Of a stretch of DNA of 64,000 nucleotides, positions 56,404 to 60,900 are shown piece after piece (the first letter of the stretch is position 1; each line of letters begins with the position of its first letter). The position numbers and the translations under genes were made by a program. The stretch is from Escherichia coli. GTDB taxonomy: Bacteria; Pseudomonadota; Gammaproteobacteria; Enterobacterales; Enterobacteriaceae. The stretch lies in the NCBI RefSeq assembly GCF_046105845.1, contig NZ_CP151004.1. One strand, written 5' to 3'. The notes under the pieces were generated by a model. It did no database searches and was not told where the DNA came from. It saw only the letters and a list, made by a program, of their open reading frames with translations.

Positions 56404-56736
56404 ATGTACGAAGCTCTTTTGGTAGTTTTCCTTATTGTGGCAATTGGCCTTGTTGGTCTGATCATGCTGCAGCAAGGTAAAGGCGCTGATATGGGAGCCT
56501 CCTTCGGAGCAGGCGCTTCCGCTACGCTGTTTGGTTCAAGTGGTTCTGGTAACTTCATGACCCGCATGACGGCGCTGCTGGCAACGTTATTCTTCATCAT
56601 CAGTCTGGTGCTGGGTAACATCAATAGCAACAAAACCAATAAAGGTAGCGAATGGGAAAACCTGAGTGCGCCGGCCAAAACCGAACAAACTCAGCCAGCT
56701 GCTCCGGCTAAGCCGACCAGCGATATCCCGAACTAA
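56404..56736 (+). CDS. secG: Protein translocase subunit SecG
   Basis: Start at MYEALLVVFLIVAIGL gives 110 aa. Confidence 0.93.
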   Translation: MYEALLVVFLIVAIGLVGLIMLQQGKGADMGASFGAGASATLFGSSGSGNFMTRMTALLATLFFIISLVLGNINSNKTNKGSEWENLSAPAKTEQTQPAAPAKPTSDIPN

Positions 56737-56750
56737 AAAGTAGTATCCGT

Positions 56751-56837
56751 GCCGAGGTGGTGGAATTGGTAGACACGCTACCTTGAGGTGGTAGTGCCCA
56801 ATAGGGCTTACGGGTTCAAGTCCCGTCCTCGGTACCA
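56751..56837 (+). tRNA. leuU: tRNA-Leu
   Basis: 87-nt sequence GCCGAGGTGGTGGAATTGGTAGACACGCTACCTTGAGGTGGTAG...GGTTCAAGTCCCGTCCTCGGTACCA with long variable arm, ending in CCA. Confidence 0.93.
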
Positions 56838-56845
56838 AATTCCAG

Positions 56846-56875
56846 AAAAGAGACGCTGAAAAGCGTCTTTTTTCG
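56846..56875 (+). terminator. Intrinsic terminator after secG-leuU
   Basis: agacgct/agcgtct stem with gaaa loop followed by T6 run. Confidence 0.85.
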
Positions 56876-57293
56876 TTTTGGTCCTGGTCTGAGGAATGGT
56901 TGTCAGGTATCTGTATCTCGTCCAGTTGCTTTACTCGTAGCTGGTACTTTGAAACGATGGTGCCGGTACGCCTTAGTTATAAACTTTTCCCTTCTGCTGA
57001 CATAATTGGCACTTTATTGTGTCAACTCCAGTTCCGGTACGAATACGGATATGTTTACTTCTCGATAAACCATCCTGCTCCTGTCAGTATAACTACTGAT
57101 GGCTACGTTCTGCGTAATGTTTAGAGACGCATTGATAATGTTATTTAATTACTGAGAACAATGGCCGCATCATTTAAAAAGAAAAAACTAACAGTGTTTC
57201 GGTCTGATATGGATCAGAGTTGAAAAACATGTCTGATATAAAATTGAACATTGTTGATAATTGTTTATATTGGTTGTGAACTTGGATTTCTGG

Positions 57294-58919
57294 ATGACAG
57301 TATTCAACAAATTTGTTAGAAGTTTTAAATCTCATTGGTTGTTGTATCTTTGTGTTATTGTTTTTGGTATTACGAACTTAGTCGCCTCTTCCGGAGCGCA
57401 TATGGTTCAGCGATTGCTGTTCTTCGTTCTGACCATCCTGGTTGTTAAACGTATATCATCCCTTCCGCTTCGCCTGCTTGTTGCCGCACCATTTGTGTTA
57501 CTGACAGCGGCAGACATGAGTATTAGCCTCTATTCATGGTGTACCTTTGGTACAACTTTCAATGATGGATTTGCGATTAGCGTGCTGCAGAGTGATCCGG
57601 ATGAAGTTGTCAAAATGCTGGGGATGTATATCCCTTATCTATGTGCTTTTGCCTTTTTATCCCTTCTTTTTTTTGCAGTAATAATAAAATATGATGTTTC
57701 CTTGCCGACGAAAAAAGTGACAGGAATATTATTGCTGATTGTCATTTCGGGCAGTTTATTTTCCGCTTGTCAATTTGCTTATAAAGATGCAAAAAATAAA
57801 AAAGCGTTCAGTCCATATATACTAGCGTCGCGATTTGCTACCTATACACCGTTTTTCAATCTCAATTATTTTGCTTTAGCAGCGAAAGAGCATCAAAGAT
57901 TACTCTCAATTGCAAACACGGTGCCGTATTTTCAATTATCAGTCAGGGATACAGGTATTGATACCTACGTGTTGATTGTGGGGGAGTCTGTACGTGTCGA
58001 CAATATGTCTTTGTATGGATATACACGCTCTACGACACCGCAAGTCGAAGCACAAAGAAAACAGATCAAACTGTTTAATCAAGCAATAAGCGGTGCACCT
58101 TACACTGCGCTGTCGGTTCCCCTTTCTTTAACTGCTGATTCTGTTTTGAGTCATGACATTCATAATTACCCGGACAACATTATTAATATGGCTAATCAAG
58201 CAGGATTTCAGACTTTCTGGCTAAGCTCGCAATCCGCTTTTCGGCAGAATGGTACAGCAGTTTCCAGTATCGCCATGCGCGCCATGGAAACAGTCTATGT
58301 CAGAGGATTTGATGAATTGTTGTTGCCGCATTTATCGCAAGCGTTACAGCAAAAGACGCAGCAAAAGAAATTGATTGTTCTTCATTTAAATGGAAGCCAT
58401 GAACCGGCTTGTAGCGCCTATCCGCAATCCAGCGCCGTGTTTCAACCGCAGGACGATCAGGATGCCTGCTATGACAACTCCATTCATTACACAGATAGTT
58501 TGCTAGGTCAGGTTTTTGAATTATTAAAAGATCGCCGCGCCTCGGTCATGTATTTTGCCGATCACGGCCTGGAACGCGACCCTACGAAGAAGAACGTCTA
58601 TTTTCATGGAGGCAGGGAGGCCAGCCAGCAGGCATATCATGTCCCGATGTTTATCTGGTATAGCCCCGTTCTTGGGGATGGCGTTGATCGTACAACGGAA
58701 AACGATATCTTTTCCACTGCGTACAATAATTACCTTATTAATGCGTGGATGGGGGTAACAAAGCCGGAACAGCCGCAAACGCTGGAGGAAGTGATTGCAC
58801 ACTATAAAGGAGACTCACGGGTTGTAGATGCAAACCATGATGTTTTCGATTTTGTGATGCTAAGAAAGGAGTTTACTGAGGATATGCAAGGTAACCCCAC
58901 CCCTGAAGGGCAGGGTTGA
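57294..58919 (+). CDS. yhbX: Phosphoethanolamine transferase-family membrane protein YhbX
   Basis: Start at MTVFNKFVRSF gives 541 aa; N-terminal TM segments plus sulfatase-like domain; AT-rich gene. Confidence 0.85.
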   Translation: MTVFNKFVRSFKSHWLLYLCVIVFGITNLVASSGAHMVQRLLFFVLTILVVKRISSLPLRLLVAAPFVLLTAADMSISLYSWCTFGTTFNDGFAISVLQSDPDEVVKMLGMYIPYLCAFAFLSLLFFAVIIKYDVSLPTKKVTGILLLIVISGSLFSACQFAYKDAKNKKAFSPYILASRFATYTPFFNLNYFALAAKEHQRLLSIANTVPYFQLSVRDTGIDTYVLIVGESVRVDNMSLYGYTRSTTPQVEAQRKQIKLFNQAISGAPYTALSVPLSLTADSVLSHDIHNYPDNIINMANQAGFQTFWLSSQSAFRQNGTAVSSIAMRAMETVYVRGFDELLLPHLSQALQQKTQQKKLIVLHLNGSHEPACSAYPQSSAVFQPQDDQDACYDNSIHYTDSLLGQVFELLKDRRASVMYFADHGLERDPTKKNVYFHGGREASQQAYHVPMFIWYSPVLGDGVDRTTENDIFSTAYNNYLINAWMGVTKPEQPQTLEEVIAHYKGDSRVVDANHDVFDFVMLRKEFTEDMQGNPTPEGQG

Positions 58920-58926
58920 TGTCGAA

Positions 58927-60285
<1,359 letters not shown>

Positions 60286-60321
60286 TTAATTAACTGATGA
60301 TGAGCCTGGATTTCCGCTCTC

Positions 60322-60359
60322 ACTGAATTTTTATGCAAAATAAATGAGTTTTCATTTAA
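60322..60359. promoter_or_regulatory. Tandem ARG boxes (ArgR operator) upstream of argG
   Basis: actgaatttttatgcaaa and aatgagttttcattt, 50-90 nt upstream of argG start; resemble the TGAAT-AT-rich-ATTCA ARG box palindrome. Confidence 0.6.
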
Positions 60360-60617
60360 TCATCTTTTATCGGAGACAGGAAGAGTTTAGTGTGTTTTTT
60401 GTAAAATAATGCGCTTAAGGGAGAGCAGGAGAAGGCAAAAGTATTCAACAAATGAAAGTGAACTGGATATTCATTCACGTGATTAGCAATAAACGTTGAC
60501 AAAATGTGGCATGGATCACTATAATGCCTGCAGATTTTACGTCCCGTCTCGGTACACCAAATCCCAGCAGTATTTGCATTTTTTACCCAAAACGAGTAGA
60601 ATTTGCCACGTTTCAGG

Positions 60618-60694
<77 letters not shown>

Positions 60695-60817
60695 CTTTCC
60701 CTTAGAGTCCTTTTTCAAATATACTGTGAAGACTTCGGCCTTCGTAGTGGGATTTGAAAAAATCCTTCTGGAAAGTGCTCCAGACCGCAGTTGCGGTTAT
60801 AGGGTTCAGTTATATAA

Positions 60818-60843
60818 AGCCCCGATTTATCGGGGTTTTTTGT
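60818..60843 (+). terminator. Partial terminator between metY and rimP
   Basis: agccccga/tcggggtt hairpin followed by T-run. Confidence 0.7.
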
Positions 60844-60900
60844 TATCTGACTACAGAATAACTGGGCTTTAGGCCCTTTTTTTATGTCTTGGGGGTGGGC

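What the first reader, a model, noticed from the sequence alone, without database searches (positions are those of the whole stretch)
56880..58919. AT-rich yhbX and upstream region within a core neighbourhood
yhbX and its 5' region are much more AT-rich than the flanking secG-leuU and argG, fitting an old horizontally acquired, possibly H-NS-silenced, lipid-modification gene.
Basis: seen in the sequence. Interest (0 to 1): 0.2.

Follow-up and report, generated by a model that had tools for sequence, protein, structure and literature searches.

The report
AT-rich foreign gene yhbX in E. coli
The AT-rich stretch is real: it is a 2-kb piece of foreign DNA carrying yhbX (a membrane enzyme of unknown target) that replaced another AT-rich gene between a tRNA gene and argG in the E. 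coli lineage, which is an ordinary, largely expected case of old horizontal gene transfer.

Summary
Observation confirmed. Window 56880-58919 has 42.1% GC against 52.2% for the window and is its lowest 2-kb stretch. yhbX GC3 is 42% against 57±5% for the other ORFs.

The four E. coli paralogs (eptA, eptB, eptC, opgE) have the same GC2 but normal GC3 (56-61%). The bias is therefore synonymous and does not come from membrane-protein composition.

Homology with Salmonella and Citrobacter stops just after the leuU terminator (about 56879) and resumes at the argG stop codon. In those genera the slot is either empty or holds an unrelated 317-aa XRE-type HTH gene. That gene also fills the slot in a non-coli Escherichia and in 237 of 5426 E. 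coli genomes; 5178 carry yhbX.

yhbX is thus a lineage-specific replacement cassette. It is old within E. coli (dS like its flanks) and under purifying selection (dN/dS 0.07-0.19). Its nearest relatives are a 64%-identical paralog on pheV islands and ≤48% homologs in other contexts.

YhbX keeps all the catalytic residues of phosphoethanolamine transferases but meets no curated EptA, EptB or CptA cut-off. Its acceptor is unknown, so "lipid modification" is unproven.

H-NS silencing could not be tested. Interest is low.

The parts
56751..56837 (+). leuU, tRNA-Leu(GAG). This is the conserved left anchor of the slot.
   Evidence: ARAGORN and Rfam tRNA, 52.8 bits. An identical 87-nt sequence occurs in Salmonella, Citrobacter, Edwardsiella and Hafnia.
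56845..56874 (+). leuU intrinsic terminator. This is the last sequence shared with other genera and with the alternative E. coli allele; homology ends at about 56879.
   Evidence: Terminator scan: 13-pair stem followed by a T-run. The same hairpin is present in Salmonella and Citrobacter. BLAST break points lie at 56879 and 58926.
56880..57293 (+). Non-coding leader of the cassette, specific to the yhbX allele (GC 38.8% measured over 56838-57260). It holds a promoter-like site at 57244-57271. Labs use this spacer as a neutral insertion site.
   Evidence: GC. No Rfam or Pfam hit. No similarity to the spacers of other genera or to the HTH cassette. Promoter-like TTGAAC-16-TATATT, although the count of such sites is no higher than in shuffled sequence. 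A cat cassette has been placed between leuU and yhbX.
57294..58919 (+). yhbX, 541 aa. A predicted inner-membrane phosphoethanolamine transferase with about 5 N-terminal hydrophobic helices and a periplasmic sulfatase-fold domain. Its acceptor is unknown.
   Evidence: The RefSeq annotation uses the same start codon. Pfam Sulfatase, E = 2e-56. NCBIfam hits are all below their cut-offs. PDB matches to EptC 5zzu and NmEptA 5fgn. Residues E231, T271, H369, D423, H424 and H438 are present. GC3 is 42%. dN/dS is 0.07-0.19.
58893..58917 (-). An 11-bp G+C-rich hairpin on the argG-sense strand, lying inside the last codons of yhbX. It is the only candidate structure downstream of argG now that the ancestral argG terminator is gone, and it has no U-tract.
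   Evidence: RNA fold of 58860-58935 on the minus strand: the hairpin spans nt 19-43 of the folded 76-nt RNA, whose minimum free energy is -17.1 kcal/mol. The terminator AAAAAAGGCCGC..GCGGCC is present in Salmonella, Citrobacter and the E. coli HTH allele but absent here. argG-yhbX is listed in the MG1655 excludome.
58927..58935 (-). argG stop codon and last two codons (Gly-Gln). They differ from the Val-Lys, Ala-Lys and Ala-Lys of the HTH allele, Salmonella and Citrobacter, so the right junction of the replacement reaches into argG.
   Evidence: Direct sequence comparison. tblastn aligns ArgG of L001 over only 445 of 447 residues.

Best explanation
Window 56880-58926 is a roughly 2.05-kb single-gene islet of foreign origin, fixed in most E. 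coli.

**How it got there (inferred).** It entered the slot between the leuU terminator and argG after E. coli separated from at least one other Escherichia species and before present-day E. coli diversified. It replaced the slot's earlier occupant, an even more AT-rich 317-aa XRE-type HTH gene, together with argG's terminator and last two codons. No integrase or att repeats remain, so exchange now proceeds by homologous recombination in the conserved flanks.

**What it encodes.** YhbX is a catalytically intact inner-membrane phosphoethanolamine transferase. This rests on family homology: the enzyme should take phosphoethanolamine from phosphatidylethanolamine onto Thr271 at a Zn site and pass it to a periplasm-facing acceptor. 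The acceptor is not known. It could be LPS, glucan or something else.

**Why it is AT-rich.** The AT-richness lies at synonymous sites and reflects donor composition that has not ameliorated.

**Expression (inferred, not shown).** Expression is probably low. The 1.25-kb tract of at least 60% AT is the kind of DNA that H-NS coats. In addition, argG transcription now runs antisense into yhbX.
For: **Composition**
- 42.1% GC against 52.2%, the lowest 2-kb stretch of the window.
- GC3 is 42% against 57±5% (z = -3.1). The paralogs eptA, eptB, eptC and opgE have the same GC2 (36-39%) but GC3 of 56-61%.

**Synteny**
- S. enterica subsp. diarizonae, C. amalonaticus and Citrobacter sp. MGH106 have leuU and argG about 180-210 bp apart, with no yhbX.
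- PMC4013655 lists YbiP, CptA, EptA and EptB but no YhbX for Salmonella LT2 and C. rodentium.

**Alternative allele**
- The HTH gene occupies the slot in 237 of 5426 E. coli genomes; yhbX occupies it in 5178.
- The same HTH gene sits in the same slot in S. enterica, C. koseri and a non-coli Escherichia.
- Its divergence ranks as the flanks do. HTH identities are 71.7%, 74.7% and 77.8%; argG identities are 85.0%, 86.3% and 88.0%. In the non-coli Escherichia, HTH is 91.8% identical and the flanks 91-92%.

**Derived state of the yhbX allele**
- The ancestral argG terminator is missing and the last two argG codons are changed.

**Age and selection**
- dS is 0.03-0.09, comparable to the flanks at 0.04-0.16. 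dN/dS is 0.07-0.19.

**Mobility of the gene family**
- The next relatives are only 42-48% identical (Buttiauxella, Mixta, Pectobacterium, Microvirgula) and lie in unrelated contexts.
- The Buttiauxella copy is also AT-rich: 42.6% GC against 52.2% in its flanks.
- A 64%-identical paralog lies on pheV islands and on a circular 62-kb integrase-bearing element in 455 genomes. The literature concurs.

**Enzyme**
- Pfam Sulfatase hit, PDB matches and all six catalytic residues are present.

**Antisense overlap**
- argG-yhbX is in the MG1655 excludome.
Against: - There are no mobility genes and no direct repeats at the borders, so the mechanism of entry is unknown.
- The donor is unidentified.
- I could sample only one non-coli Escherichia, which the source does not name. 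yhbX could therefore be older and polymorphic in the genus, and the HTH allele in E. coli could be a re-import rather than a retained ancestral allele. Its very low diversity (229 of 237 copies at 99% identity or more) fits a re-import.
- H-NS binding is not shown. Matches to the H-NS high-affinity motif are not enriched: 4 in the region against about 2.3 expected from the window average.
- The promoter-like sites are no more frequent than chance.
- Purifying selection shows the gene is used, so it cannot be permanently silent.
Confidence: 0.8

Rival explanations
1. yhbX is an ancestral enterobacterial gene that was lost from Salmonella and Citrobacter. On this view its AT-richness is a native feature, caused by weak expression, relaxed codon bias and a membrane-protein composition.
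For: - GC2 (37%) is indeed as low as in the paralogous membrane enzymes, so part of the total GC deficit comes from amino-acid composition.
- The gene is nearly fixed in E. coli and diverges like the core.
- There are no mobility genes or att repeats.
Against: - The GC3 deficit of about 15 points is absent from all four paralogs.
- In the outgroups the slot is either empty, with an intact conserved argG terminator, or filled by an unrelated gene whose divergence tracks the species.
- There are no yhbX remnants in those loci.
- The closest homologs elsewhere are 48% identical or less and sit in other contexts.
- The yhbX allele carries the derived argG end.
Confidence: 0.07
2. The HTH gene is not ancestral. 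On this view the leuU-argG spacer is a recurrent insertion hotspot downstream of a tRNA, hit independently by the HTH gene in several genera and by yhbX in E. coli, and the ancestral state is the empty spacer.
For: - The empty state exists in S. enterica subsp. diarizonae and two Citrobacter species.
- The HTH family is widespread as a single accessory gene, at 52-58% identity in Pseudomonas, Photorhabdus and Serratia.
- The C. koseri slot is 470 bp longer, with extra material.
- The E. coli HTH allele is nearly clonal.
Against: - HTH divergence between genera has the same rank order as the flanking core genes.
- HTH divergence equals that of the flanks in the non-coli Escherichia.
- Orientation and position between the two terminators are the same in all four taxa.

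Either way, yhbX remains a lineage-specific acquisition.
Confidence: 0.25
3. yhbX is a decaying, functionless passenger, in effect a pseudogene in waiting.
For: - No phenotype or function has been reported.
- IS1 and IS3 insertions occur in several strains (H19, H46, H47, H52).
- The gene is replaced by another gene in 4.4% of genomes.
- Its flanks are used as neutral integration sites.
Against: - dN/dS is 0.07-0.19 across ten E. coli comparisons.
- The 541-aa ORF was intact in the 10 of 11 fetched E. coli loci where a gene was called at full length (a 505-aa gene was called in L029).
- At least 80% of the segment is present in one piece in 5166 of 5426 genomes.
- All catalytic residues are kept.
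Confidence: 0.05

Closest known systems
E. coli K-12 yhbX (b3173; UniProt name 'Putative transferase YhbX')
   Same: It is the same gene. The window copy is 97.7% identical in DNA to the K-12-lineage strain DH1 and has the same neighbours and the same start codon.
   Different: Allelic differences only: 8 non-synonymous and 30 synonymous changes.
Phosphoethanolamine transferases of the EptA/MCR-1/EptC(CptA)/EptB/OpgE superfamily (structures 5FGN, 5ZZU, 4KAV, 9NWW)
   Same: - It has an N-terminal multi-helix membrane anchor plus a periplasmic sulfatase-fold domain.
- The residues matching NmEptA E240, T280, H383, D452, H453 and H465 are all conserved, as E231, T271, H369, D423, H424 and H438.
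   Different: - Identity to the E. coli paralogs is only 24-32%, with OpgE scoring best at 124 bits.
- It scores far below every curated NCBIfam cut-off, for example 141 against 404 bits for CptA and 94 against 660 bits for EptA.
- There is no hit to Pfam's EptA_B_N membrane domain.
- The acceptor substrate is unknown.
YjgX/YhbX-like phosphoethanolamine transferases carried on pheU, pheV and selC genomic islands of E. coli
   Same: It is the closest relative found, at 64% protein and 68% DNA identity across the coding region. It is also AT-rich, at 43.7% GC. It sits in integrase-bearing tRNA-Phe islands and is reported in the literature.
   Different: - It is an accessory gene, present in 455 of 5426 genomes, with mobility genes around it.
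- yhbX is a solitary, nearly fixed gene with no mobility genes.
- The upstream regions are unrelated.
- YhbX has a 13-aa C-terminal extension that runs into the hairpin next to argG.
Xenogeneic (H-NS-silenced) AT-rich islets of E. coli
   Same: It has the composition, the tRNA adjacency, the patchy phylogenetic distribution and the IS insertions typical of such islets.
   Different: H-NS occupancy and derepression in an hns mutant are not documented in anything I could access.

Membership tests
Phosphoethanolamine transferase superfamily (EptA/MCR type) | Periplasmic sulfatase / alkaline-phosphatase-fold catalytic domain | tested here: met
   Pfam PF00884 Sulfatase, E = 2.3e-56, residues 224-466. 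PDB sequence matches to EptC 5zzu (1e-23) and NmEptA 5fgn (4e-23).
Phosphoethanolamine transferase superfamily (EptA/MCR type) | Thr nucleophile and the Zn/phosphoethanolamine-binding Glu, Asp and His residues (NmEptA E240, T280, H383, D452, H453, H465) | tested here: met
   The HMMER alignment to 5fgn places YhbX E231, T271, H369, D423, H424 and H438 at these positions. The residues were verified in the translated sequence. The NmEptA residue numbering comes from my own knowledge of the published structure.
Phosphoethanolamine transferase superfamily (EptA/MCR type) | N-terminal membrane domain of about five helices | tested here: inconclusive
   The hydropathy scan finds hydrophobic stretches spanning about residues 13-81, 105-139 and 141-164, which I read as roughly five helices. 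The alignment to full-length NmEptA starts at residue 41. There is no Pfam EptA_B_N hit, and no topology or structure prediction was run.
EptA, EptB or CptA/EptC equivalogs (lipid A / Kdo / heptose modifiers), i.e. a 'lipid-modification gene' | Score at or above the curated NCBIfam cut-off of the family | tested here: not met
   Scores against cut-offs, in bits:
- CptA subfamily: 141 against 404
- EptA: 93.6 against 660
- EptB: 104.5 against 493
- Generic lipid A transferase domain: 155.7 against 500
- All MCR models: far below their cut-offs
EptA, EptB or CptA/EptC equivalogs (lipid A / Kdo / heptose modifiers), i.e. a 'lipid-modification gene' | Demonstrated transfer of phosphoethanolamine to lipid A or the LPS core | not testable with these tools
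   The literature states that no function is established for YhbX (PMC4013655). Of the 20 papers that mention yhbX, I opened nine, and none of them reports a substrate.
tRNA-associated genomic island | Anomalous composition and sporadic phylogenetic distribution next to a tRNA gene | tested here: met
   composition; distribution. The left border lies 42 nt after the 3' end of leuU.
tRNA-associated genomic island | Integrase gene and flanking direct repeats (att) derived from the 3' end of the tRNA | tested here: not met
   There is no integrase ORF. Only short, chance-level direct repeats were found, none matching leuU.
H-NS-silenced xenogeneic DNA | An extended tract more AT-rich than the genome | tested here: met
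   A 1.25-kb tract of at least 60% AT. TpA steps are 67 per kb against 42, and A/T-tracts are 15.7 per kb against 9.2.
H-NS-silenced xenogeneic DNA | H-NS occupancy in vivo and derepression when H-NS (and StpA) is removed | not testable with these tools
   The supplementary tables of five H-NS papers were either not held or lacked gene names even for control genes.

The most novel reading that the evidence does not exclude
The leuU-argG slot may be a long-lived two-allele locus, with two unrelated AT-rich single-gene cassettes as mutually exclusive alleles in E. coli: yhbX and a 317-aa XRE-type HTH gene.

On this reading the HTH gene has stayed at GC3 of 30-36% in the same slot since before Escherichia, Salmonella and Citrobacter diverged. 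That would mean AT-richness is actively maintained rather than ameliorated. It would also mean the yhbX replacement rewired argG termination into an antisense (excludon) relation with yhbX.
Probability: 0.45. Interest if true: 0.35.

Novelty: already known. Interest (0 to 1): 0.15.

Why it matters
It matters little on its own. yhbX is a catalogued E. coli gene of unknown function, and AT-rich, lineage-specific genes next to tRNAs are the textbook signature of old horizontal transfer.

The useful outcomes are practical:
- The exact borders of the foreign segment are now defined.
- "Lipid modification" should not be assumed for YhbX.
- The leuU-yhbX and yhbX-argG spacers, which several labs use as neutral integration sites, lie inside a replaced cassette where argG has lost its ancestral terminator and overlaps yhbX transcriptionally.
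- A small natural polymorphism (yhbX or the HTH gene) exists that could be exploited to find out what either gene does.

Tried and rejected
**H-NS ChIP evidence.** I looked in the supplements of PMC3064808, PMC3923964, PMC11335895, PMC4288151, PMC12460168 and PMC4720273. The files were either not held or lacked gene names; bglG was also absent from the two supplements (PMC4288151, PMC4720273) where I searched for it as a control. The negatives are therefore uninformative.

**Full-text searches.** Searches for yhbX and b3173 gave no functional or H-NS data.

**Exact-match scan of species genomes with leuU.** It returned only 16 loci, none from E. coli or a named Escherichia species, so E. albertii and E. 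fergusonii could not be checked by name.

**The single E. coli record with 80-90% identity.** An attempt to surface it with a short query failed.

**Low-identity YhbX "fragments" (74-91%).** They turned out to come from error-ridden assemblies in which every gene is fragmented.

**Upstream 414 bp.**
- No Rfam family.
- No credible ORF domain.
- No remnant of the HTH gene.

**Borders.** No att-like repeats.

**H-NS high-affinity motif TCGATAAATT.** Not significantly enriched.

**Sigma-70-like promoter sites.** Six were found against 4.4±1.7 in shuffles.

**PADLOC.** No defence-system match for YhbX, and only marginal HTH-region matches for the alternative gene.

**Membrane-protein composition as the cause of AT-richness.** Rejected on the paralog GC3 control.
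Full report
**1. The observation**

The window is E. coli chromosome. It is 99.6% identical to strain ST2747 and about 97.8% identical to a K-12-size genome (H8) over 56700-59000. It runs in the reverse orientation to the K-12 map.

The gene order is folP, glmM, secG, leuU (tRNA-Leu GAG, 56751-56837), yhbX (57294-58919, +), argG (58927-60270, -), metY, rimP leader, rimP, nusA.

GC values:

| Segment | GC |
|---|---|
| Finding interval 56880-58919 | 42.1% |
| Whole window | 52.2% |
| glmM | 54.0% |
| secG | 50.7% |
| leuU | 57.5% |
| argG | 53.0% |

- Only 0.2% of all 2040-bp windows are as low as the finding interval, and the global minimum lies at 56831.
- GC rises along the gene, from 32-38% at the 5' end to about 50% at the 3' end.
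- Positions 56951-58200 form the longest tract of at least 60% AT in the window.

**2. Is the AT-richness only what a membrane enzyme would show?**

It is not.
- yhbX has GC1/GC2/GC3 of 49.6/37.3/42.1%.
- The 52 long ORFs of the window have GC3 of 56.6±5.2%, which puts yhbX at z = -3.1, the lowest of all. Its GC2 is unremarkable (z = -0.9).
- The four K-12 paralogs, fetched from NC_000913.3, have the same low GC2 (36-39%) but normal GC3: opgE 56.4%, eptB 57.6%, eptC 61.2%, eptA 59.1%.

The deficit therefore sits at synonymous sites.

**3. Synteny and borders**

An exact-match scan of species-representative genomes with the 87-nt leuU sequence returned 16 loci. I mapped the window's proteins onto them.

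- S. enterica subsp. diarizonae, C. amalonaticus and Citrobacter sp. MGH106 have leuU and argG only about 180-210 bp apart. That spacer holds the leuU terminator, REP-like sequence in Salmonella and C. amalonaticus, and an argG terminator (AAAAAAGGCCGC..GCGGCC).
- Edwardsiella, Hafnia, Tenebrionibacter and a MAG (metagenome-assembled genome) have leuU directly followed by rimP-nusA, so argG itself is an older insertion.
- None of these loci has any YhbX match.

Similarity between E. coli and these genera ends just after the leuU terminator and resumes at the argG stop codon. The E. coli allele has no ancestral argG terminator. Its yhbX stop codon lies 7 bp from the argG stop. Its last two argG codons encode Gly-Gln, where the others encode Ala-Lys or Val-Lys.

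**4. A second allele, and the probable earlier occupant**

- 5178 of 5426 complete E. coli genomes carry the segment. Some have IS1 or IS3 insertions.
- In a red-fox isolate the slot holds other genes, with break points at window positions 56879 and 58926.
- The intact form of that alternative is one 317-aa gene with an N-terminal XRE-type HTH domain. It lies in the argG orientation and is present in 237 genomes.
- This allele keeps the ancestral-type argG terminator.

Homologs at 71-73% protein identity occupy the very same slot in some S. enterica and in C. koseri. A homolog at 89% protein identity occupies it in an unnamed Escherichia whose flanks are 91-92% identical to E. coli, which makes it a different species.

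| Comparison (DNA identity) | HTH gene | argG | glmM |
|---|---|---|---|
| E. coli vs Salmonella | 71.7% | 85.0% | 82.9% |
| E. coli vs C. koseri | 74.7% | 86.3% | 84.0% |
| Salmonella vs C. koseri | 77.8% | 88.0% | 85.8% |

- The HTH gene ranks the three pairs in the same order as the flanking genes.
- In the non-coli Escherichia, HTH identity (91.8%) equals that of the flanks.
- The HTH gene is even more AT-rich than yhbX: GC 37.5-40% and GC3 30-36%.

The simplest reading is that the HTH gene is the older resident of the slot, that it was lost in some lineages, and that yhbX replaced it in the E. coli lineage. No HTH remnant survives in the yhbX allele.

An alternative is recurrent insertion, with a recent re-import into E. 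coli. I cannot exclude it, because 229 of the 237 E. coli copies are at least 99% identical.

**5. Age and selection**

I compared the window with ten other E. coli loci.
- yhbX dS is 0.03-0.09. The flanks are similar: glmM 0.05-0.16 and argG 0.04-0.13.
- dN/dS is 0.07-0.19, against 0.02 or less for the housekeeping neighbours.

The gene has therefore diverged along with the E. coli core, and it is maintained by purifying selection that is weaker than on its neighbours. "Old" is justified within the species. The acquisition post-dates the split from the sampled sister Escherichia, unless the locus was already polymorphic at that time.

**6. Where the gene family lives**

A full HMMER scan of 1.84 billion representatives found only 118 clusters at E ≤ 1e-30. 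After the E. coli cluster, the best full-length hits are 42-48% identical.
- They come from Buttiauxella, Mixta gaviniae, Pectobacterium sp. and Microvirgula. Proteus is at 34%.
- Their genomic contexts are unrelated to leuU-argG.
- The Buttiauxella copy is also AT-rich relative to its flanks (42.6% against 52.2% GC), whereas the Mixta copy matches its host at about 60%.

A tblastn search of plasmids found a 64%-identical paralog on a 62-kb circular, non-mobilizable "plasmid". That element looks like an excised island: it carries an integrase, AlpA, a CP4-type module, F4-like fimbriae and an H-NS paralog.

The same gene lies in chromosomal tRNA-Phe (pheV) islands. It is present in 455 genomes, and about 100-bp remnants of it occur in roughly 1450 more.

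PMC6174562 reports YjgX- or YhbX-like transferases at all the pheU, pheV and selC islands it analysed. The family is therefore demonstrably island cargo in E. coli.

**7. The protein**

- YhbX has a Pfam Sulfatase domain.
- It matches E. coli EptC and N. meningitidis EptA structures.
- It conserves E231, T271, H369, D423, H424 and H438 at the positions of the NmEptA catalytic and metal residues.
- It has about five N-terminal hydrophobic segments.

It scores far below every curated EptA, EptB, CptA and MCR cut-off. By BLAST its nearest K-12 paralog is OpgE, the glucan modifier. The literature states that no function has been established.

The mechanism of phosphoethanolamine transfer through a Thr-linked intermediate is inferred from the family. 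The acceptor is unknown, so "lipid modification" is one possibility among several.

**8. Regulation**

H-NS silencing could not be tested, because none of the ChIP tables I could reach was usable.

The sequence has the right predisposition: a long tract of at least 60% AT, many TpA steps and many A-tracts. Matches to the high-affinity motif are not enriched.

One separate consequence of the replacement is supported by the literature. With the ancestral terminator gone, the only structure downstream of argG is an 11-bp hairpin without a U-tract, lying inside the last yhbX codons (58893-58917). In addition, argG-yhbX is listed among the convergent overlapping transcript pairs of MG1655.

**9. 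Verdict**

- The horizontal-transfer reading is well supported, and sharpened to a replacement of an older AT-rich occupant.
- The lipid-modification label is unproven.
- The H-NS idea is plausible but untested.

The gene and its type are known, and the case is ordinary. The only mildly new element is the polymorphism at the leuU-argG slot between yhbX and the HTH gene, together with the apparent long persistence of extreme AT-richness in the HTH gene.

Noticed in passing
L028:2533-3486 (E. coli CFSAN061769); also L001:6181-8124, L042:4001-4960, L044:4001-4960, L046:1904-2857: An unrelated 317-319-aa gene, with an XRE-type HTH at its N-terminus and about 270 aa with no Pfam match, occupies the leuU-argG slot instead of yhbX. 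It does so in 237 of 5426 E. coli genomes and in some S. enterica, C. koseri and a non-coli Escherichia. It is very AT-rich (GC 37.5-40%, GC3 30-36%). Homologs at 52-58% identity occur in Pseudomonas, Photorhabdus and Serratia. Its function is unknown.
   Followed up: partly
L039:438-2099 (plasmid pRHB40-C01_2) and L041:12001-13674 (pheV island): A YhbX paralog (64% protein identity, 43.7% GC) is carried on tRNA-Phe islands and on a 62-kb circular element that has an integrase, CP4-type genes, F4-like fimbriae and its own H-NS paralog but no replication genes annotated. It is present in full in 455 of 5426 E. coli genomes. About 100-bp remnants of its 3' end occur in roughly 1450 more.
   Followed up: partly
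L002, L006, L010, L012, L015 against window 58927-60617: In Edwardsiella, Hafnia, Tenebrionibacter and a MAG, leuU is followed directly by rimP-nusA. argG itself is therefore an older insertion between secG-leuU and metY-rimP-nusA in the Escherichia/Salmonella/Citrobacter group.
   Followed up: no
L004 (Shimwellia) and L017 (Citrobacter sp. MGH106), between glmM and secG: About 3.9 kb of extra DNA separates glmM from secG in these two species. In E. coli the two genes are about 230 bp apart. The contents were not examined.
   Followed up: no
L016 (Intestinirhabdus alba), downstream of leuU at 1309-1395: No argG, rimP, nusA or yhbX match was found in the 9.4 kb after leuU. This is another, unexamined state of the region downstream of this tRNA.
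   Followed up: no
window 58878-58919: YhbX carries a 13-residue C-terminal extension (EDMQGNPTPEGQG) relative to the island paralog. The extension is encoded by the G+C-rich hairpin next to the argG stop, as if the ORF had read through into junction sequence.
   Followed up: partly
window 60271-60617: The argG-metY intergenic region is also AT-rich (37.2% GC). It was not examined further. The rimP leader (Rfam RF01770, 102 bits) lies at 60783-60883.
   Followed up: no
E. coli genomes H19, H46, H47, H52; L001:6831-7528: IS1 and IS3-family insertions interrupt yhbX in several strains. An IS1 also interrupts the alternative HTH gene in the red-fox isolate. AT-rich DNA is a known preferred target of IS1.
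   Followed up: no
NZ_MG591698.1 (353-kb E. coli plasmid), 269371-270993: A large plasmid record carries a 98.3%-identical copy of chromosomal yhbX. This presumably reflects a captured chromosomal segment or a mis-assigned replicon. Three other "plasmid" records of 4.8-4.9 Mb are evidently chromosomes.
   Followed up: no
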